Positions 23,520 to 33,263 are shown, numbered from the stretch's first letter. The stretch is 33,751 nt of DNA from Candidatus Nanohalarchaeota archaeon (GCA_017610385.1 JAFCCC010000007.1:1-33751); one strand, 5' to 3'. Notes: a model not told the origin generated them from the sequence alone. A program made the numbers and translations.

Positions 23520-23757
23520 GGGGGTATGGGGTAATGGCATCCTTACCGGCTCCAGAGAATAGATAGCTCCGTTAACACGATAATGTGTCGCTCTATGCAC
23601 GAGCACATATAATCTTGTTCAGAGTGAAGTGAGTTGTTTACAACTCGCTGTGTTGATTAAGCTGACTGCAGCTTATTTGGAGCGATGAGTCCGTAGGACA
23701 ATGACTTAATACTTATGAAGACACCGGTCGATCCCGGTTCAAATCCGGGTGTCCCCA
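23520..23757 (+). tRNA. tRNA-Trp(CCA) with 167-nt intron at 37/38 (23556-23722)
   Basis: Acceptor GGGGGTA/TGTCCCC, anticodon arm ACCGG-CTCCAG|A-CCGGT, T arm CCCGG-TTCAAAT-CCGGG. Confidence 0.92.
23650..23688 (+). ncRNA. Intron-encoded C/D-type guide predicted for Cm34 of tRNA-Trp
   Basis: TTTGGAGC (23676-23683) pairs with GCTCCAGA (23549-23556); ATGA D-box variant at 23685; N+5 base pairs with C34; C-like GTGTTGA at 23650. Confidence 0.6.
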
Positions 23758-24534: not shown

Positions 24535-24679
24535 TGCCGAGGGCGAGACTCGGACTCGCGACCTCCACGTATCTCAACATAAATCATGGAAAACGTGAGT
24601 TTTCTCATTACTCACAAAGATACGTTTATGAGCTTCGCCTAAGATTATGTGGCGCTCTAACCAACTGAGCTACCTCGGC
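24535..24679 (-). tRNA. Elongator tRNA-Met(CAT) with two introns: 30/31 (24634-24648, 15 nt) and 37/38 (24571-24626, 56 nt)
   Basis: Spliced: GCCGAGG TA GCTC AGTTGGTTA GAGC G CCACG CTCATAA CGTGG AGGTC GCGAG TCCGAGT CTCGC CCTCGGC A; both introns form BHB motifs. Confidence 0.9.
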
Positions 24680-28092: not shown

Positions 28093-28241
28093 GGGCTCGT
28101 AGCTCAGTTGGTAGGAGCCTTTTTGCACAGGCAAGCGCGCAAAAACTCTCGGGAAAAGTACGCTTCCGCAAGTAAAAAGGTCCGACAGAGAGCACACGGC
28201 TCTTAACCGTGGGGTCGCGGGTTCGAGCCCCGTCGGGCCCA
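28093..28241 (+). tRNA. tRNA-Lys(CTT) with 76-nt D-loop intron (about 20/21; 28113-28188)
   Basis: Spliced GGGCTCG TA GCTC AGTTGGTA GAGC A CACGG CTCTTAA CCGTG ... CGGGCCC A; relaxed BHB GTTG/CGAC with GT|A and AG|A bulges. Confidence 0.9.
28118..28170 (-). repeat. 53-nt hairpin element, copy in tRNA-Lys intron (inverted relative to the Gly copy)
   Basis: Reverse complement aligns ungapped with 33171-33223 at 42/53 nt (manual count). Confidence 0.8.
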
Positions 28242-28312
28242 TTCAGTTTTCTTGATTTAAGGTTTTCTAAAAAGTAGTAAATATTATAAATTACAAGACA
28301 TATTTTCTCTGA

Positions 28313-28915
28313 ATGACTCAGAGAATTTACGAAACCATCTTAGAAGAAAAATCAGTTAGTTTAAAGGAATATGGGTTAACGTTAAAAAAACTAGAAGCAC
28401 TAAGACACACAGCGCCCACAGACCTTGTATCTTCTTTTAAGAATTCGCCGTACTTAAACTGGTTGGGTGAAGAAAACTCCTGTGAAATTCCTTTACAATT
28501 ACAGGGAACCTCCTTTGCCGAGCTCGTTGATCTATATTTTTCACAAGAGGGAACAATATCTCGTGGAACAATGTACACAGATATACTTAAAATCACAAAA
28601 TCAATAATGTGGATTGCAGAGATAGACAATCACACGGTGGGGGGAATTTGGTATGAACCACAAGAAGCCCTTACAGGAATCTTACCCACGCACATCATAG
28701 TTAATCCAGAATTTAGAGAATACGGCATAGGTTCTGCATTAGAAGAGATTTCTTGTGAAAACCTAAGGCATCAAAACAGATATAAGCGGCCATTAATTTT
28801 ACAAATATGTTGGCCAATCAATAGAAAAGAGACAGAACCAGCTTGGTTCAAGAGAAGAGGTTATTCTATACAAAAATCTAGTTTTATTTATTGTGCACAA
28901 AAAAGCATTGAATAA
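28313..28915 (+). CDS. Divergent GNAT-fold acetyltransferase
   Basis: WIAE.D..TVG, IIVNPEFREYGIGSAL (motif A), WFKRRGY. Confidence 0.7.
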   Translation: MTQRIYETILEEKSVSLKEYGLTLKKLEALRHTAPTDLVSSFKNSPYLNWLGEENSCEIPLQLQGTSFAELVDLYFSQEGTISRGTMYTDILKITKSIMWIAEIDNHTVGGIWYEPQEALTGILPTHIIVNPEFREYGIGSALEEISCENLRHQNRYKRPLILQICWPINRKETEPAWFKRRGYSIQKSSFIYCAQKSIE

Positions 28916-28947
28916 TCTTAATAAATAGTCGAATTCTAAAAGTAATT

Positions 28948-29643
28948 ATGAATACATTTAGAGTCAAGGTTCTAGAAATTCAGGAAAATGTTCCTAATGT
29001 ATTTTTCATTAGATTAGAACGACCAAAGAACTTTAAATTTCAAGCAGGGCAATTTATTTTCATTAAAAAGATTGTTAATCAAATTCCGGCAATTCGCGCG
29101 TATTCTATTTCAACAACGCCACAACAAAAAGAATATTTTGAATTATGCGTAAAAAAAGTTTCTGGGGGAAAGGTTTCACCGATTTTATGCTCTTTAAAAA
29201 AGAATCAGATTTTAGAATTTAAAGGGCCTGCCGGACGATTTACCTTAGATAAGGACATAAAAGGAGAACTTGTTCTAGCGGCAACTGGAACGGGAATTTC
29301 TGCTATTAAAGGAATCCTCGTAAATGCTCTAGAAACTGGCTTCAAGAACCAGATTTATTTGTTTTTTGGCGTTAAAACTCAAAAACACATCATCTATAGA
29401 AAAGAATTAGAGAAACAAAAAAAAAAATACAAGAATTTCCATTTCATCCCAGTCTTAAGCAGGGAAAATTGGGTGGGAGAAAAAGGTCACGTTCAAGATC
29501 CAATTAAGAAATACGCGAAGAAACTAAATTTAAATGAAACACACATGTTTATTTGCGGAATTCCGTTAATGGTTCAAGAAACTAAAAAATTGGCCTTAAA
29601 ACTCGGGTTTCAAGAAGAAAACATGCATTTTGAGCGGTGTTGA
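28948..29643 (+). CDS. FAD/NAD(P)-binding oxidoreductase (ferredoxin reductase-like)
   Basis: F.AGQF, RAYSIS, GG..S, GP.G.F, ATGTGI, FICG.P.MV, HFE. Confidence 0.92.
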   Translation: MNTFRVKVLEIQENVPNVFFIRLERPKNFKFQAGQFIFIKKIVNQIPAIRAYSISTTPQQKEYFELCVKKVSGGKVSPILCSLKKNQILEFKGPAGRFTLDKDIKGELVLAATGTGISAIKGILVNALETGFKNQIYLFFGVKTQKHIIYRKELEKQKKKYKNFHFIPVLSRENWVGEKGHVQDPIKKYAKKLNLNETHMFICGIPLMVQETKKLALKLGFQEENMHFERC

Positions 29644-29661
29644 TAAAAATAATAAAATAAT

Positions 29662-30108
29662 TTATAAGTTTAAACCCATTTCATAATGTTTTATTTTAAA
29701 ACCTATTTTTTTGTAAAAATTAATTGCATTGGTATTGTTCGTTAAAACGGCCAACCGCAAGGTTTTTGTTTTGTGTGCCTTTGACCAAGTTTTAAAGTAT
29801 TCGATAAGTTCTGTTCCAATTCTATTTTTTCTGTAGTTCGGCAATACAAAAATATCATCCAAGTAAGCAACTTTTTCATAAGTATTAGAAATTAAGGATG
29901 CAATTAAAAAACCAAGAAGTTTAGAGTTTTCTTCGGCAATTACCAAGATACGTTTTTTATTTGAAATCAATCTTTCAAACTCTTCTTTTATTTTTTGAGA
30001 TGAACTTTCGAGATTAGTTCCGGCTTGCTCGTTATATTCTCCAAGAGCTTGTTTTCTTAAGAATTCATAAGACATATAATCTTCAGGCAGAATGGTTCTA
30101 ATAAGCAT
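29662..30108 (-). CDS. GNAT family N-acetyltransferase
   Basis: IFVLPNYRKNRIGTELI, L.V...N..AINFYKKIGF. Confidence 0.9.
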   Translation of the reverse strand: MLIRTILPEDYMSYEFLRKQALGEYNEQAGTNLESSSQKIKEEFERLISNKKRILVIAEENSKLLGFLIASLISNTYEKVAYLDDIFVLPNYRKNRIGTELIEYFKTWSKAHKTKTLRLAVLTNNTNAINFYKKIGFKIKHYEMGLNL

Positions 30109-30190
30109 AATATATAATTGGAGTGTTTATACAAAAAGACGCACTAAAGAAACATTTTTATAAACTTGTTCTCATTACCTCTTTAGTTAT

Positions 30191-30287
30191 AGTGAGTTAA
30201 TTATAACTCGCTGTGTTTGTGAATTTTGTTCACAAGTTAGAAAAACTCGTAAGAGTTTTACGTGATGATCAAACTTTCAGAAGTTTG
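30191..30287 (+). repeat. Array of four hairpins directly upstream of tRNA-Ile
   Basis: Stems at 30191-30212, 30217-30235, 30242-30259, 30270-30287; first 27 nt match 23628-23654 at 24/27. Confidence 0.75.
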
Positions 30288-30420
30288 GACCCGTAGCTCA
30301 GTCGGTTAGACATCCTAAATCAAATCGATTGCTGGGATGGCCCAAAGCGCTACATTCGTTTAAAAGACGCAGGCGAAGCTGATAACGTAGAGGTCGTGAG
30401 TTCAAGTCTCACCGGGTCCA
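30287..30420 (+). tRNA. tRNA-Ile(GAT) with two introns: about 22/23 (30310-30345, 36 nt) and 30/31 (30354-30377, 24 nt)
   Basis: Spliced GGACCCG TA GCTC AGTCGGTTA GAGC G CTACG CTGATAA CGTAG AGGTC GTGAG TTCAAGT CTCAC CGGGTCC A; first boundary could shift by 1 nt. Confidence 0.88.
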
Positions 30421-30426
30421 TTAAAG

Positions 30427-30873
30427 CTATTTTTTAGTTAATAATTCATAAGCTTGCTTTAGAATGTCTCTTTGTTCTTTGTACGTAAGAATAGCTTTTG
30501 CATCCCGATAATTCAAGAAAAACCCGCGTTTATGCTCTGCGTCTGGATTATCTTTAATACTAATATGGGCCTTGGCAGGAACTTCTACTAGAAAGGGCGC
30601 AAATTCTGCTTTAATTTTTTCGCCATCTTGGGAATATTGCCAGGTATAAAAACCATTTAATTTTCTAATGCTTAAAATATCAGTAATTCCGGTTTCTTCT
30701 TTTATTTCTCTTTTAATGCATTCTTCATATGATTCTTCTATCCTTAGTCCTCCCTTGTTAATTTCCCATCCATTCCAGTGTAAAACACGTTCGAAAACGG
30801 CAAAATGATAATAACCTTCAATTTTCTTGTATACCAACGCAAAAATACCTTTTCTAATCTTCATTTTCATCAC
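30427..30873 (-). CDS. NUDIX hydrolase
   Basis: W...KGG....E....C.KREIKEETG Nudix box, EH. Confidence 0.9.
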   Translation of the reverse strand: MMKMKIRKGIFALVYKKIEGYYHFAVFERVLHWNGWEINKGGLRIEESYEECIKREIKEETGITDILSIRKLNGFYTWQYSQDGEKIKAEFAPFLVEVPAKAHISIKDNPDAEHKRGFFLNYRDAKAILTYKEQRDILKQAYELLTKK

Positions 30874-30960
30874 GAACTATTGGAAATTTATTAAAATTAC
30901 ACTACAATCATATTTATACATAAAAATATAACTGTAAATTAACGTCTTAGGTGTTAAATT

Positions 30961-31581
30961 ATGTTTAACTTTCTAAAAAAGTTTTTGTCTTTATTCTCTA
31001 AAAAAAGAGAGGCTATAAGTATTGGAATTTATGGTCCACCAAATGTAGGAAAAAGTACTCTAGCGAATAAAATCTCTTTAGACTTTACTGGATCGGAATT
31101 AAGTGCTGTTTCGGAAATACCGCATGAAACAAGAGTAGTTCAAAAAAAAGAGCGTGTTGAATTGGCTATTGACTCTAAAACAATGATCATAAATTTATTA
31201 GATATGCCCGGAATTTCAACAAAAGTAGATTTTCGTGATTTTGAAGAATTTGGCATTAGTGAAACAGAATCCAAGAATAGGGCAAAAGAAGCGACAAGAG
31301 GAATCGTAGAAGCGATTAAATGGTTGGATAATGTTGATGCGTGTTTGGTTGTTTTTGATTCTACAAAAGACCCATATACTCAAGTAAATATTACGATTAT
31401 AGGCAATTTAGAAGCGAAAAATATTCCGATAATTATCGTAGCAAATAAAATTGATTTGGACGATTCAGACCCGCAAAGGATCGCGGATGCATTCCCACAG
31501 CATCCAATGATTGAAATCTCTGCTAAAGAGAATATGAACATAGATAAATTATATAAAACAATATTTGATAAGTTGAGGTAA
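30961..31581 (+). CDS. oapA: Era-like GTP-binding protein (OapA family)
   Basis: GIYGPPNVGKSTLAN, S.IPHETR, D.PG, R..EAT.G..EAI.WL, DPYTQVN, NKID, ISA. Confidence 0.9.
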   Translation: MFNFLKKFLSLFSKKREAISIGIYGPPNVGKSTLANKISLDFTGSELSAVSEIPHETRVVQKKERVELAIDSKTMIINLLDMPGISTKVDFRDFEEFGISETESKNRAKEATRGIVEAIKWLDNVDACLVVFDSTKDPYTQVNITIIGNLEAKNIPIIIVANKIDLDDSDPQRIADAFPQHPMIEISAKENMNIDKLYKTIFDKLR

Positions 31582-31583
31582 AA

Positions 31584-31991
31584 ATGCTTGCTGTACGAAA
31601 AGATAAGAATAAGAAAAAGGGGGTTAGAATCGAGTTCATTTCTAAGGATAAATTAAAAGAAAAAGACTTTGATGAGAAAGTAAACTTAATTTTAGAAAAA
31701 GTGAAAGATAATTCTATTTTAGTTTTAGAAGAAGCATTAAGCCCAGAAGAAAAAAGAGAATTAATTACAAGATCTGTTGAAAGTATTACAGAGGAATTTC
31801 CAGGTATTGAGTTTTCTGGGCTGGAGAATCACTCTGCTTTTTTTGATCGTCTTTTAAATAATCTATCCAAGAAGTTTTTAGGAAAAGAAAGAAAAAGAGG
31901 GTTAACCATTGTTGGAAATTCTAATGTAATGGAAAAGATCGCAGAAGAACGTGACTCTGTTTCCTTATTAGCAAAATTTGACAGATTTTAG
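31584..31991 (+). CDS. oapB: DUF2073 protein (OapB family)
   Basis: EK...IL..V....I.VLEE.LSP.E...LI, F.GIE, GLTIVG; second gene of the oap cluster. Confidence 0.85.
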   Translation: MLAVRKDKNKKKGVRIEFISKDKLKEKDFDEKVNLILEKVKDNSILVLEEALSPEEKRELITRSVESITEEFPGIEFSGLENHSAFFDRLLNNLSKKFLGKERKRGLTIVGNSNVMEKIAEERDSVSLLAKFDRF

Positions 31992-32000
31992 AGGTTAAAA

Positions 32001-32516
32001 ATGCCACACATTTGTATGAACTGCGGAAAAAGGTACGAAGATGACTCTGAAGAGCTTTTAAAAGGATGTGAGTGTGGATCAACATTATTCTTATTTGAAA
32101 AAGAAACAGAAGGGGTTGAAGAAGACGAACCAAAAGAAACAAAGGGGAAAAATTCAAAAGAAACTAAAAAATCAAAGAAAGCATCTAATAAAAAATATAG
32201 AGATTCTTTAGTAGAAGAAATCGACTCATTTTTGAAGAATTTAAAGGACAAATTCAAAAAAAAGAGTGAAATTAAGTTTGATTTGGAATCTATTAAGGTA
32301 ATTAAAGAAGGGGTTTATGAAATTAACATTGGAAGACTTTTGGAAAAAATGCCATTGATTATAGAAATCAAAGAAGGTAGCTATAATATTCACCTACCCT
32401 CTGCATTTAAACCAGAAGAATTTGAGACCTTTGATATTAAAGAATTAGAAGATCTACGCGCATTAATTGTATCTAAAGGCAAAAAGGGTGCTAAAAAAAA
32501 GAAGAAGACCAAATAA
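32001..32516 (+). CDS. oapC: Zn-ribbon protein (OapC family)
   Basis: MPH.C..CG....D.S..LL.GC.CG...F, ESI.V...G.YEIN...L, EG.Y.I. Confidence 0.88.
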   Translation: MPHICMNCGKRYEDDSEELLKGCECGSTLFLFEKETEGVEEDEPKETKGKNSKETKKSKKASNKKYRDSLVEEIDSFLKNLKDKFKKKSEIKFDLESIKVIKEGVYEINIGRLLEKMPLIIEIKEGSYNIHLPSAFKPEEFETFDIKELEDLRALIVSKGKKGAKKKKKTK

Positions 32517-32568
32517 CCCCCTAATTATCTAATTTCAAGCGAAAAATAATGATAAAATAGAAAAATAA

Positions 32569-32596
32569 AATTGGGCGGTAGTATTATCCGCCAATT
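32569..32596 (-). terminator. Stem-loop plus T-tract at the end of the DUF5679-like gene
   Basis: AATTGGGCGG-N9-CCGCCAATT overlapping the stop; TTTTATTTTT follows on the minus strand. Confidence 0.55.
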
Positions 32597-32724
32597 CTGA
32601 AAACTTTTGTTCCACATTTCGGACAGGTGCCTTTTGTAGCAGGCCTTCCGTTCTTCATAATAATTTTTTGTGGATTTTTAATTTCAACCTTTTCTTTACA
32701 TTTTACGCAATATGCTTGTACCAT
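32584..32724 (-). CDS. DUF5679-like small Zn-binding basic protein missing from the ORF track
   Basis: Manual translation MVQAYCVKCKEKVEIKNPQKIIMKNGRPATKGTCPKCGTKVFRIGG*; AGGTG SD. Confidence 0.88.
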   Translation of the reverse strand: MVQAYCVKCKEKVEIKNPQKIIMKNGRPATKGTCPKCGTKVFRIGG

Positions 32725-33113
32725 ATTAACACCTAATAGTAAACTACCTTTAGACGGTATATATAAGTATGCACAAATCCCTTATAAATGACGCTCAAAA
32801 TACTCTAAAAAGAGGTTTAATTTCTTTTTGTTTTTATCGGTGTTTTTGAGAACAAACATGAAAAAATAACTTTTCCTAGTTCTGTCAAATTACGATGAAT
32901 AACTCAAAATGTGAAGCTTTATTTTTACGTATTTTTCTTTCAGTTAGATCAATTCAAGAACTTATGAATTGGAAATTAGTGGGGCACAGAGACGTGAAAA
33001 CAACACAGAAATGAATACTCCACAAGAAATTAACAAATTATATTTTTGCGTTTGGATCAACACATTTAAACATATAAAAGCTTTTAAACACAGAGTCAAT
33101 TTAATTAAAATAT

Positions 33114-33263
33114 GCGTTGTTAGTCTAGGGGCATGACACAACCCTGCCAACTTATTGCACTATAACTTTATGCGGAAGCGTAATTTTCATCAACGTTTTT
33201 GCACGTTTACTTGGGCAAAAAGGTTGAGCGGTTGAGGCGCGGGTTCAATTCCCGCACAGCGCA
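33114..33263 (+). tRNA. tRNA-Gly(GCC) with 79-nt intron at 37/38 (33150-33228)
   Basis: Acceptor GCGTTGT/ACAGCGC, anticodon arm CAACC-CTGCCA|C-GGTTG, T arm GCGGG-TTCAATT-CCCGC. Confidence 0.9.
33171..33223 (+). repeat. 53-nt hairpin element, copy in tRNA-Gly intron
   Basis: TGCGGAAGCGTA-NTTTTC-N6-GTTTTTGC-N12-GCAAAAAGG; inverted homologue at 28118-28170. Confidence 0.8.

What the first reader, a model, noticed from the sequence alone, without database searches (positions are those of the whole stretch)
28118..33223. Same 53-nt hairpin element in opposite orientations inside two unrelated tRNA introns
Seen: the reverse complement of 28118-28170 (tRNA-Lys D-loop intron) aligns without gaps to 33171-33223 (tRNA-Gly 37/38 intron) at 42/53 nt. 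Blocks TGCGGAAGCGTA, GTTTTTGC and GCAAAAAGG are identical, and almost all differences fall in the loop and spacer. Both tRNAs are on the + strand, so the element is antisense in one pre-tRNA. Established: intron spread between archaeal tRNAs is usually modelled as RNA-level reinsertion or gene conversion, which would keep orientation. Inference: a DNA-level mini mobile element (MITE/REP-like) uses BHB introns as neutral sites because splicing removes it, or helps create the introns. No mobilising enzyme is visible in the window.
Basis: partly seen in the sequence, partly recalled or inferred. Interest (0 to 1): 0.85.

Follow-up and report, generated by a model that had tools for sequence, protein, structure and literature searches.

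The report
Flipped hairpin repeat in tRNA introns
Two tRNA introns in this tiny archaeal genome carry the same short hairpin repeat in opposite directions, and the repeat belongs to a genome-specific family that also fills other tRNA introns and the spacers around tRNA and rRNA genes, which points to intron sequence being moved or flipped as DNA.

Summary
The reverse complement of 28118-28170 matches 33171-33223 at 42/53. Across 1.57 million windows of the 788-kb genome, unrelated sequence reaches at most 31/53 against the Gly copy.

It is one module of a repeat family with 12-13 copies:
- Four sit in tRNA introns: Lys-CTT D-loop and Tyr T-loop in one orientation, Gly-GCC 37/38 and Gly-TCC T-loop in the other.
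- One sits in a tRNA 3' trailer.
- The rest sit in hairpin arrays in a 276-nt tRNA-Pro intron, other trailers, 5S flanks and the tRNA-Ala/23S spacer.

A second block, about 95 nt, is also inverted between the tRNA-Trp and tRNA-Pro introns.

Removing each of the four introns restores a standard tRNA.

The family was found in none of 69 other genomes of the order. tRNA-Lys(CTT) has no D-loop intron in 10 of 10 relatives viewed.

No HUH, TnpB, DDE or GIY-YIG enzyme passes threshold, and no clear target-site duplication was seen.

Verdict: a real DNA-level hairpin-repeat family, REP/MITE-like in behaviour but not shown to belong to either. The mechanism, recombination or flipping versus transposition, is unresolved.

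The parts
28093..28241 (+). tRNA-Lys(CTT) gene: exon 1 28093-28112, D-loop intron, exon 2 28189-28241
   Evidence: ARAGORN calls tRNA-Lys(ctt) after in-silico removal of 28113-28188. Rfam tRNA partial hit 28178-28241. Exons match tRNA-Lys(TTT) at 69/73.
28113..28188 (+). 76-nt D-loop intron of tRNA-Lys(CTT) with a relaxed bulge-helix-bulge junction
   Evidence: Pairs checked by coordinate. D stem 28102-05/28190-93. One unpaired A. 4-bp helix 28107-10/28183-86. 3-nt bulges 28111-13 and 28187-89. Outer helix 28114-15/28181-82 plus 28118-26/28172-80. The strict motif finder does not call it.
28114..28172 (-). Repeat module copy (A type), antisense to the tRNA
   Evidence: Covariance-model hit, 58.9 bits; nhmmer E 1.1e-13; 42/53 to the Gly copy.
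28120..28145 (.). Module hairpin: 7-bp stem (28120-26 / 28139-45), 12-nt loop
   Evidence: Pairs listed. Hairpin conserved across 12 copies, with some both-sides changes.
28159..28170 (-). 12-nt asymmetric head (reads TGCGGAAGCGTA on the - strand)
   Evidence: Sequence read; identical block; aligned in 5 A-type copies.
28172..28182 (+). Second copy of the A-rich arm. It pairs with 28114-28126 to close the intron (terminal inverted-repeat-like arms).
   Evidence: pairs. Terminal duplex -15.4 kcal/mol; 4 of 300 shuffles reach it. This helix is used in the unconstrained MFE fold.
33114..33263 (+). tRNA-Gly(GCC) gene: exon 1 33114-33149, intron, exon 2 33229-33263
   Evidence: Rfam tRNA 48.1 bits, full model. 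ARAGORN Gly(gcc), intron at 37, 79 nt. Recognised as Gly(gcc) after intron removal.
33150..33228 (+). 79-nt intron at 37/38 of tRNA-Gly(GCC); no strict bulge-helix-bulge found
   Evidence: Boundaries from ARAGORN. The strict hBHBh' scan gives only spurious placements.
33169..33227 (+). Repeat module copy (A type), sense to the tRNA
   Evidence: Covariance-model hit, 61.9 bits; nhmmer E 2.6e-14.
33171..33182 (+). 12-nt asymmetric head TGCGGAAGCGTA
   Evidence: Sequence read.
33196..33221 (.). Module hairpin: 7-bp stem (33196-33202 / 33215-33221), 12-nt loop
   Evidence: Read; present in the MFE fold. My first register was off and is not used.
33147..33158 (+). T-rich arm at the 5' end of the intron, reaching 3 nt into exon 1. 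It is complementary to 33215-33226 (terminal inverted-repeat-like arms).
   Evidence: MFE fold. Terminal duplex -10.9 kcal/mol; 14 of 300 shuffles reach it.

Best explanation
The two 53-nt stretches are diverged copies, in opposite orientation, of a 57-60-nt module. The module has a 12-nt head, a spacer of about 12 nt, a T-run/A-run hairpin and a short tail.

The module belongs to a lineage-specific family of short palindromic repeats. These repeats fill the parts of stable-RNA genes that are cut away: tRNA introns, 3' trailers, leaders, 5S flanks and the tRNA-Ala/23S spacer.

Shown:
- The family exists and its copies have been placed or turned as DNA, because an RNA-level route cannot invert a sequence.
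- Taking the four introns out restores normal tRNAs.

Inferred:
- Copies spread and rearrange without an enzyme of their own. The routes would be hairpin- or inverted-repeat-mediated recombination: gene conversion between arrays, template switching, and flips between the T-rich and A-rich arms that close the intron.
- Either orientation is tolerated inside an intron because the splice motif is built from exon bases plus the intron termini, not from the module's interior.
- Outside introns one orientation predominates, either because orientation matters there or because the arrays are homogenised together.

The confidence of 0.55 is for the whole statement, including the enzyme-free recombination route. 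That the family is real I put at about 0.97, and that it moved or turned as DNA at about 0.9.
For: The family is real:
- A profile from the two copies finds further copies at E 4.5e-8 to 1.3e-5.
- A 12-sequence profile gives 13 hits at E <= 4.2e-4.
- The covariance model gives 12 matches.
- Genome background is at most 31/53, against 36-42 for copies.

Both orientations occur in introns:
- Whole-intron local alignment scores are Lys-Tyr 50 forward, Gly-Gly 50 forward, Lys-GlyGCC 52 reverse, Tyr-GlyTCC 46 reverse. The shuffle maximum is 24.
- Among 34 tRNA regions, the only antisense BLAST hits are these two pairs plus one self-palindrome.
- A second block (H3-H4-H5) lies in the tRNA-Trp intron, 98% identical over its 56-nt H4-H5 core. 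It is inverted relative to the tRNA-Pro(GGG) intron and the rRNA/tRNA flanks.

The introns are real:
- 4 of 4 become standard tRNAs after removal.
- A strict hBHBh' motif is found at the Tyr and Gly-TCC T-loop introns; a relaxed one at Lys.
- One EndA gene is present.

The intron ends are alike in both orientations, a T-rich 5' arm and an A-rich 3' arm:
- Terminal duplex for Lys is -15.4 kcal/mol, reached by 4/300 shuffles.
- For Gly-GCC it is -10.9, reached by 14/300.

Recombination signals:
- Array copies are 95-100% identical across loci, while the intron A copies are 70-80% identical.
- The Tyr copy is mosaic: its loop resembles Lys and its spacer resembles Gly-TCC.

No mobilising enzyme:
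- Y1_Tnp: 0 hits. OrfB_IS605: 0. GIY-YIG: 0.
- The TnpB zinc-ribbon domain and DDE_Tnp_1 give sub-threshold hits only.

Derived state:
- 10 of 10 relatives have an uninterrupted tRNA-Lys(CTT) D-loop.
- The paralogue Lys(TTT) shares 69/73 exon bases but has no D-loop intron.
Against: - No direct evidence for any recombination event. There are no close relatives or population reads to show an empty, filled or flipped allele at the same locus.
- The terminal arms are weak in Tyr: -7.3 kcal/mol, reached by 65/300 shuffles.
- The Gly-GCC intron shows no recognisable strict BHB, so how it is spliced is unexplained.
- The genome is 93.5% complete in 18 contigs. Many contig ends fall in these arrays, so an enzyme gene or further copies could be missing.
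- The co-orientation of copies outside introns would also fit a strand-specific transposition mechanism. It is 38 of 43 module hits within 1 kb of, or inside, an RNA gene, and 10 of 12 family copies.
- Those counts are not independent: neighbouring modules of one array travel together, and two of the modules are nearly palindromic.
- Nothing shows that the arrays are transcribed.
Confidence: 0.55

Rival explanations
1. A true non-autonomous transposon (MITE or IS200/IS605-PATE/REP-like) with terminal inverted arms. It would be inserted in either orientation by an enzyme supplied in trans, one that is missing from the assembly, carried by a virus or plasmid, or now lost.
For: - Multiple dispersed copies in both orientations.
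- Inverted-repeat-like arms at the ends of the Lys and Gly-GCC introns.
- Lineage restriction.
- Sites that are empty in relatives and in a paralogue.
- Co-orientation outside introns would fit a strand-specific single-strand transposition.
- The assembly is incomplete, with 18 contigs and arrays at contig ends.
Against: - No Y1 HUH, OrfB_IS605 or GIY-YIG hit. Only sub-threshold TnpB-domain and DDE hits.
- No convincing target-site duplication. The short direct repeats at T-loop junctions (CGAA) are equally explained by the need to pair with exon TTCG in the splice motif.
- No copies in 5 candidate viral contigs, and no exact array matches in the viral collection.
- Copies in arrays abut other modules head to tail, like tandem growth rather than independent insertions.
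Confidence: 0.27
2. The module is a functional signal selected wherever it occurs. It might be a structure or protein-binding hairpin used in transcription termination or in processing of stable-RNA precursors. Orientation would be free only where just the hairpin matters.
For: - All but one copy lie in or within 1 kb of stable-RNA genes.
- There is a strong common orientation outside introns.
- Hairpin pairing is kept, with some both-sides changes.
- The T-rich arm starts directly after the 3' end of two tRNA-Ser genes, where an archaeal oligo-T terminator would sit (the terminator rule is recalled knowledge).
Against: - Absent from 69 other genomes of the order, and the arrays are absent from 40 relatives. 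An essential signal would not be expected to be so restricted.
- Many tRNA genes of the same genome have no such flank.
- A function inside introns that are discarded is not needed.
- No Rfam family matches.
Confidence: 0.12
3. RNA-level intron mobility (reverse splicing and reverse transcription) or simple orientation-preserving gene conversion. On this view the antisense similarity is an illusion caused by the palindromic hairpin.
For: The hairpin stem (8 + 8 nt of the 53) is self-complementary and would match in either orientation.
Against: - The 12-nt head and the spacer are not palindromic and match only in reverse complement: 42/53 against 10/53.
- Whole-intron scores are 52 reverse against 18 forward, with a shuffle maximum of 24.
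- The same holds for Tyr/Gly-TCC: 46 reverse against 22 forward.
Confidence: 0.02
4. Chance similarity of two AT-rich, low-complexity introns.
For: The genome has 32% G+C, and T-run/A-run stems are common.
Against: Genome-wide background ends at 31/53, and 8 further windows reach 36-42. Independent copies are found at E down to 1e-16.
Confidence: 0.01

Closest known systems
Intron families shared between different tRNAs and positions in Thermoproteales ('large-scale intron transposition', Fujishima et al. 2010). I know this only from passages in PMC4090602 and the 2026 Asgard preprint; the paper itself is not held.
   Same: Related intervening sequences sit at different positions (D-loop, 37/38, T-loop 59/60) of different tRNA genes in one genome. 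Splice-motif constraints apply at the junctions. The mechanism is unknown and presumed to act on DNA.
   Different: - Here the shared sequence is in opposite orientations in 4 of 6 intron pairs.
- It is also shared with 3' trailers, 5S flanks and an rRNA spacer.
- The terms orientation, reverse complement, antisense and inverted gave 0 occurrences in the two texts I could search.
Bacterial REP/BIME palindromic repeats and their RAYT transposases (recalled knowledge)
   Same: Short imperfect palindromes clustered in mosaic arrays with linker motifs, in transcribed but untranslated regions, with many near-identical copies.
   Different: No RAYT (Y1 HUH) gene found. Modules in an array are mostly co-oriented rather than alternating. 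The host is an archaeon. Copies lie inside tRNA introns.
MITEs
   Same: Small, non-coding and multi-copy, with inverted-repeat-like ends in two of the four introns. Both orientations occur.
   Different: No clear target-site duplication, no related autonomous element, and the terminal arms are weak in the Tyr copy.
Mobile palindromic elements of organelle genomes: double-hairpin elements and yeast mitochondrial GC clusters. From PMC7218506 and PMC4478555 I saw only the search listing and the start of the abstract; the rest is recalled.
   Same: Hairpin-forming short repeats that spread without an evident enzyme into intergenic regions, introns and variable parts of RNA genes of a compact genome.
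   Different: A different domain of life and unrelated sequences. Here the hosts are protein-spliced BHB introns, not group I/II introns.
Small inversions of hairpin loops flanked by inverted repeats in chloroplast non-coding DNA (recalled knowledge)
   Same: The interior of a stem-loop is flipped while the flanking arms stay. This matches the layout seen when the Lys and Gly-GCC introns are compared.
   Different: Here the flipped copies are at different loci, so a flip alone is not enough. At least one transfer between genes is also required.
Mobile-element integration model of tRNA gene disruption in Caldiarchaeum (PMC3293823; abstract read)
   Same: DNA-level gain of a tRNA intron linked to repeated DNA.
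   Different: That case involves a 1.8-kb element with a recombinase gene. Here the repeats are 25-60-nt non-coding hairpin modules.

Membership tests
Archaeal endonuclease-spliced (BHB) tRNA intron | An intervening sequence inside a tRNA gene whose removal gives a canonical tRNA | tested here: met
   ARAGORN calls Lys(ctt), Gly(gcc), Tyr(gta) and Gly(tcc) in 4 of 4 constructs made in-script by removing the proposed introns.
Archaeal endonuclease-spliced (BHB) tRNA intron | hBHBh' motif (two 3-nt bulges separated by a 4-bp helix) at the exon-intron junctions | tested here: inconclusive
   The strict motif is found for the Tyr and Gly-TCC T-loop introns. Lys has a relaxed version: the 4-bp helix and both 3-nt bulges are present, but the flanking helices are imperfect. 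None is found for Gly-GCC.
Archaeal endonuclease-spliced (BHB) tRNA intron | A splicing endonuclease EndA is encoded | tested here: met
   One 181-aa protein with tRNA_int_endo_N and the catalytic domain. No second copy was found.
MITE | Terminal inverted repeats | tested here: inconclusive
   Terminal duplex energies and shuffles reaching them: Lys -15.4 (4/300), Gly-GCC -10.9 (14/300), Gly-TCC -9.4 (24/300), Tyr -7.3 (65/300).
MITE | Target-site duplication flanking each copy | tested here: inconclusive
   Junctions were inspected by eye. Only short repeats are seen (CGAA at T-loops, GAGC at Lys), and the splice motif also requires them. None is seen at Gly-GCC.
MITE | A related autonomous element or transposase in the genome | tested here: not met
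   DDE_Tnp_1 gives only a 21-bit fragment below the cut-off. No other transposase family tested passes. rve, IS110 and other transposase families were not searched.
REP/BIME with RAYT, or IS200/IS605-derived PATE | Y1 HUH transposase (RAYT/TnpA) gene | tested here: not met
   PF01797: 0 matches at E <= 1 in a genome estimated 93.5% complete.
REP/BIME with RAYT, or IS200/IS605-derived PATE | Clusters of imperfect palindromes in extragenic regions | tested here: met
   Arrays of 5 or more different hairpin modules at about 15 loci.
REP/BIME with RAYT, or IS200/IS605-derived PATE | Alternating orientation of palindromes within a cluster | tested here: not met
   Modules within arrays are co-oriented: 38 of 43 hits within 1 kb of, or inside, an RNA gene have the same orientation relative to it.
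Thermoproteales-type shared intron family | Similar intron sequence in different tRNA isoacceptors and positions of one genome | tested here: met
   Lys D-loop, Gly-GCC 37/38, Tyr 59/60 and Gly-TCC 59/60. All 6 pairs score 29-52 against a shuffle maximum of 24.
Thermoproteales-type shared intron family | Copies share orientation relative to the tRNA. This is my assumption about that family; the source paper was not seen. | tested here: not met
   4 of 6 pairs align only in reverse complement.
Intron-encoded C/D box sRNA or any Rfam family | A match to a curated RNA family, or C and D boxes | tested here: not met
   No Rfam match to the element at E <= 1. No TGATGA or CTGA in either intron by eye.

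The most novel reading that the evidence does not exclude
In this lineage, protein-spliced tRNA introns are created and enlarged by a DNA-level hairpin-repeat system. The same system builds the leaders, trailers and spacers of the tRNA and rRNA genes.

A module carrying complementary T-rich and A-rich arms lands in, or flips within, a tRNA gene. Its arms supply the outer helix of the splice motif. A few exon-complementary bases supply the central helix. The endonuclease then removes it whichever way round it lies.

That would be a concrete, observable route for the long-unexplained gain of archaeal tRNA introns. As a by-product, excised introns from different tRNAs (Lys versus Gly) would be about 80% complementary and could pair with each other.
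Probability: 0.3. Interest if true: 0.8.

Novelty: new variant of a known kind. Interest (0 to 1): 0.62.

Why it matters
How archaeal tRNA introns arrive is an open question. [quoted passage not shown] A 2026 census of Asgard tRNA genes tested copying, mobile elements and reverse transcription, and concluded that 'how they arrive remains open'.

This genome offers a readable case:
- The same short module lies in four unrelated introns in both orientations.
- It recurs in trailers and rRNA spacers.
- A 276-nt intron consists of an array of such modules.
- Near-identical tRNA-Lys paralogues have entirely different intron sets.

Together these make a DNA-level route for intron content close to unavoidable here. 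They also give specific loci where population or long-read data could catch insertions, flips or empty alleles.

The limits are real. This is one metagenome-type assembly with no close relatives found in the collections searched. There are no RNA data, and the mechanism is unresolved.

Tried and rejected
Searches for copies elsewhere:
- Genome contigs was scanned with the head plus T-run pattern. It gave 60 stretches. My own arithmetic expects about 48 by chance. None passed nhmmer at E <= 1e-3.
- 80 metagenome loci were fetched around S8e relatives, best identity 55%. There were no element hits and no syntenic tRNA-Lys.
- Viral contigs gave 0 exact matches for two array strings. The head pattern gave 5 stretches, with at most 9.2 bits.
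- BLAST of the Lys gene and the 353-nt tRNA-Pro(GGG) gene against 40 relatives matched only exon parts.
- The covariance model found matches in 0 of 69 other genomes of the order. Stricter filters apply above 40 genomes.

Expression and population data: the look-up of sequencing runs listed no run, so no RNA holder was listed.

Considered and dropped:
- C/D box sRNA or another known RNA: no Rfam match.
- Split tRNA-Pro: the '5' half' at C9:7330-7373 is joined to its 3' part across a 276-nt intron.
- The second tRNA-Tyr (C16) as an empty-site paralogue: its body is too different.
- 'tRNA-Gly(gcc)' at C9:39369: it looks like Val(CAC) by eye.
- My first statement of the Lys outer helix (GGA/TCC) overlapped the central helix by one base. 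It is replaced by the coordinate check.
- My first register for the Gly hairpin was wrong and is not used.
- The k=13 repeat scan was swamped by low complexity and was replaced by k=20.

Not done:
- Transposase families other than PF01797, PF07282, PF01385, PF01609 and PF01541 were not searched. PF00589 was searched and found three tyrosine recombinase genes, which were not examined further.
- Protein-level tools were not needed.
- Supplementary files of papers were not opened. Supplementary Note 4 and Table S12 of the Asgard preprint may bear on whether reverse-oriented intron matches were looked for.

On whether this is already in print: I found no report of archaeal tRNA introns sharing sequence in opposite orientations, or with flanking hairpin arrays. 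That rests on the full-text searches, and on term look-ups in two papers. Fujishima et al. 2010 is not held, so this is not a claim of absence from the literature.

Full report
**1. The observation**

The window is contig C17 of a 788-kb, 18-contig, 32% G+C archaeal assembly. Its estimated completeness is 93.5%.

The reverse complement of 28118-28170 matches 33171-33223 at 42/53 without gaps. The same-strand comparison gives 10/53. All 11 differences lie in the spacer or the hairpin loop.

As a natural control I slid each 53-mer over all 1,574,682 windows of both strands of the genome. For the Gly copy, unrelated sequence reaches at most 31/53 and nothing scores 32-35. Eight other windows score 36-42. 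The match is far beyond chance, and it is not a lone pair.

**2. The host genes**

tRNA-Gly(GCC) is 33114-33263 (Rfam 48.1 bits). It has a 79-nt intron at 37/38, coordinates 33150-33228.

tRNA-Lys(CTT) is 28093-28241, with a 76-nt intron in the D-loop at 28113-28188.

When the proposed introns are removed inside a script, ARAGORN calls standard tRNAs in 4 of 4 cases. These are Lys(ctt), Gly(gcc) and the two further hosts described below.

**3. A repeat family, not a pair**

A profile built from the two copies finds more copies. A 12-sequence alignment (A1) gives 13 nhmmer hits at E <= 4.2e-4. A covariance model built from A1 gives 12 matches.

The unit has four parts: a 12-nt non-palindromic head, a spacer of about 12 nt, a hairpin with a T-run/A-run stem and an 8-12-nt loop, and a short tail.

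'A-type' copies carry the head seen in the window. There are five:
- tRNA-Lys(CTT) D-loop intron;
- tRNA-Gly(GCC) 37/38 intron;
- tRNA-Tyr(GTA) T-loop intron, C11:130044-130117;
- tRNA-Gly(TCC) T-loop intron, C3:9076-9161;
- directly after the 3' end of tRNA-Ser(TGA), C9:12731-12787.

'B-type' copies have a related head and are 96-100% alike. They lie in:
- the 276-nt intron of tRNA-Pro(GGG), C9:7021-7373;
- the trailers of tRNA-Ser(TGA) and tRNA-Ser(GGA);
- both sides of the 5S rRNA gene;
- the contig end next to tRNA-Ala of the 16S-tRNA-Ala-23S operon;
- one intergenic array with no known RNA gene.

By eye, the ends of the tRNA-Pro(GGG) intron also look like the two ends of an A-type unit split by about 230 nt of array. 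No search confirms this.

**4. Orientation**

Relative to the host tRNA, the head reads on the coding strand in the two tRNA-Gly introns. It reads on the opposite strand in Lys, Tyr, the Ser trailer and the B copies near RNA genes. That is 10 of 12 copies within 1 kb of a listed gene.

Whole-intron local alignments:

| Pair | Forward | Reverse |
|---|---|---|
| Lys-Tyr | 50 | 20 |
| GlyGCC-GlyTCC | 50 | 14 |
| Lys-GlyGCC | 18 | 52 |
| Tyr-GlyTCC | 22 | 46 |
| GlyGCC-Tyr | 14 | 36 |
| Lys-GlyTCC | 16 | 29 |

The maximum over 500 shuffles is 24.

Among 34 tRNA regions, the only antisense BLAST hits are Lys/Gly-GCC, Tyr/Gly-TCC and one self-palindrome.

It also occurs in a second, unrelated block. 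A run of three hairpins, about 95 nt by eye, sits in the 177-nt intron of tRNA-Trp. Its 56-nt H4-H5 core is 98% identical to the other copies. It is inverted relative to the copies in the tRNA-Pro(GGG) intron, the 23S leader, the 5S flanks and a Ser trailer.

**5. Context: hairpin arrays around stable-RNA genes**

The family is one module type among several. All have T-run/A-run stems, and they are strung together in arrays.

Five typed modules gave 58 hits in the genome. Of these, 43 lie inside or within 1 kb of a tRNA or rRNA gene, and 38 of the 43 share one orientation relative to that gene. The five exceptions are:
- the Gly-GCC intron;
- the Trp intron, twice;
- one weak 14-nt hit;
- one hit upstream of a tRNA.

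These counts are not independent, because modules of one array travel together and two modules are nearly palindromic.

Several introns start like trailers, by eye. The same T-rich arm follows the 5' exon of Lys, Tyr, Gly-TCC and Pro-GGG, and it also follows the 3' end of two tRNA-Ser genes.

Many tRNA genes of the genome have no such flank.

**6. Splice junctions**

A strict finder for two 3-nt bulges separated by 4 bp recovers the T-loop introns of Tyr and Gly-TCC at exactly the boundaries that restore the tRNAs. In these, the central helix is exon TTCG with intron CGAA, and the outer helix is TAGCC/GGTTA. It also recovers the 100-nt 37/38 intron of Gly-TCC.

Lys has the central 4-bp helix and both 3-nt bulges, but its flanking helices are imperfect.

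Gly-GCC shows no credible strict motif.

The outer helix is built from the module's tail or arm plus a complementary piece at the other end of the intron. The intron ends therefore look alike in both orientations. Terminal duplex energies, with the number of shuffles out of 300 that reach them:

| Intron | Energy (kcal/mol) | Shuffles reaching it |
|---|---|---|
| Lys | -15.4 | 4 |
| Gly-GCC | -10.9 | 14 |
| Gly-TCC | -9.4 | 24 |
| Tyr | -7.3 | 65 |

Read together, the Lys-type intron is arm, loop, arm', spacer, head, arm'. The Gly-GCC type is arm, head(rc), spacer(rc), arm, loop(rc), arm'. That layout is what either of two processes would produce. One is a flip between the outer arms. The other is insertion of an inverted-repeat-ended unit in either direction. 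The layout cannot tell them apart.

One EndA gene is present: 181 aa, with the N-terminal and catalytic domains, and no second copy found.

**7. Age and distribution**

The covariance model finds the family in G000 only, out of 70 genomes of the order.

BLAST of the Lys gene and of the tRNA-Pro(GGG) gene against 40 relatives matches exon parts only.

tRNA-Lys(CTT) has an uninterrupted D-loop in 10 of 10 relatives viewed. These relatives belong to other families, since none of the same genus or family is held.

Within the genome, tRNA-Lys(TTT) shares 69 of 73 exon bases with Lys(CTT). It has no D-loop intron and carries two other introns instead. Intron turnover is therefore fast relative to exon change.

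No real copy was found in the species-representative genomes, in 80 metagenome loci or in viral contigs.

**8. Mobilising enzymes**

- Y1 HUH transposase: 0 hits.
- OrfB_IS605: 0 hits.
- GIY-YIG: 0 hits.
- TnpB zinc-ribbon domain: best 22.1 bits, below the 26.3 cut-off.
- DDE_Tnp_1: one 21-bit fragment, below the cut-off of 23.
- Tyrosine recombinases: three genes.

I saw no clear target-site duplication. The short junction repeats are also demanded by the splice motif.

**9. Interpretation**

Firm points:
- The repeat family is real and lineage-specific.
- It lies in the discarded parts of stable-RNA genes.
- It has been placed or turned as DNA, because the asymmetric head rules out a palindrome artefact and any RNA-level route.

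Inferred points:
- I favour enzyme-free, hairpin- or homology-driven processes: gene conversion among arrays, template switching, and flips between inverted arms.
- The reasons are that array copies are near-identical across loci, the Tyr copy is mosaic (loop like Lys, spacer like Gly-TCC), no enzyme or target duplication is seen, and inverted copies are almost confined to introns.
- A trans-mobilised MITE/PATE-like element remains a serious rival, at about 0.27.
- A selected processing or termination signal is less likely, given the restriction to one genome.

**10. Comparison with what is known**

The closest case is the sharing of intron families among Thermoproteales tRNAs. I know it only from passages in PMC4090602 and the 2026 Asgard preprint; the original paper is not held.

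In behaviour the arrays resemble REP/BIME clusters and organelle double-hairpin or GC-cluster elements (search listing only; otherwise recalled). The defining enzyme (RAYT) and the alternating orientation are not met.

Full-text searches and term look-ups in two papers found no report of opposite-orientation sharing, or of sharing with flanking arrays.

**11. Verdict**

- Novelty: a new variant of known kinds, namely shared archaeal tRNA introns and palindromic repeat families.
- Interest: 0.62. It gives a concrete handle on how archaeal tRNA introns gain sequence. It rests on one assembly, without relatives, reads or RNA data.

Noticed in passing
G000:C13:67127-67376 (tRNA-Trp) versus G000:C9:7021-7373 (tRNA-Pro GGG): A block of three hairpins, about 95 nt by eye, lies in the tRNA-Trp intron. 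Its 56-nt H4-H5 core is 98% identical to, but inverted relative to, the copy in the 276-nt tRNA-Pro intron and the copies near 23S, 5S and tRNA-Ser. This is a second, younger case of the same phenomenon.
   Followed up: partly
G000:C13:~15647 (+) and G000:C9:~11970 (-): Two further tRNA genes share an identical 92-nt T-loop (59/60) intron in the same orientation. It is unrelated to the family studied.
   Followed up: partly
G000:C11:148624-148787 versus window 28093-28241: tRNA-Lys(TTT) and tRNA-Lys(CTT) share 69/73 exon bases but no intron position. TTT has introns in the anticodon loop and T arm; CTT has one only in the D-loop.
   Followed up: yes
G000:C3:41693-42015, C8:45741-45947, C10:10215-10413, C13:126373-126639, C13:146641-146755: A second kind of composite hairpin array, about 300 nt long. 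It often ends directly at the 5' end of a tRNA gene with a conserved small hairpin. Three of the five copies have no recognised RNA gene beside them.
   Followed up: partly
window 31584-32516, and the gap 32517-33113: Genes for the origin-associated proteins OapB and OapC (Pfam) precede a 600-nt non-coding gap before tRNA-Gly. A replication origin may be near.
   Followed up: no
G000:C13:61352-61894: The genome has only one splicing endonuclease gene: 181 aa, N-terminal plus catalytic domain, no paralogue found. Yet it has many introns at D-loop and T-loop positions. [quoted passage not shown]
   Followed up: partly
G000:C6:248-4296: 23S rRNA, RNase P RNA (C6:3321-3594, 136 bits) and a tRNA gene lie in a row, followed by hairpin modules.
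   Followed up: no
window 23520-23757 and 24535-24679: Two more intron-bearing tRNA genes in the window. ARAGORN calls tRNA-Trp(cca) with a 167-nt intron; its T arm is at 23733. Rfam finds a tRNA on the minus strand spanning 145 nt. Neither shares 20-mers with the arrays.
   Followed up: no
G000:C11:33582-33610, and loci L014, L016 of relatives: A small hairpin followed by TTTGATCATCAC lies right after tRNA-Lys in relatives from another family. In reverse complement it lies right before tRNA-Arg(CCT) in this genome. This flank motif seems conserved across families, unlike the arrays.
   Followed up: no
G000:C13:131714-131780: An 18-nt motif occurs twice about 47 nt apart in a 460-nt non-coding region beside a hairpin array. 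No Rfam match.
   Followed up: no
G000:C14:23213-24004, next to the tRNA at C14:24432-24524: A tyrosine recombinase ORF of 489 aa lies beside a tRNA gene, possibly an integrated element.
   Followed up: no
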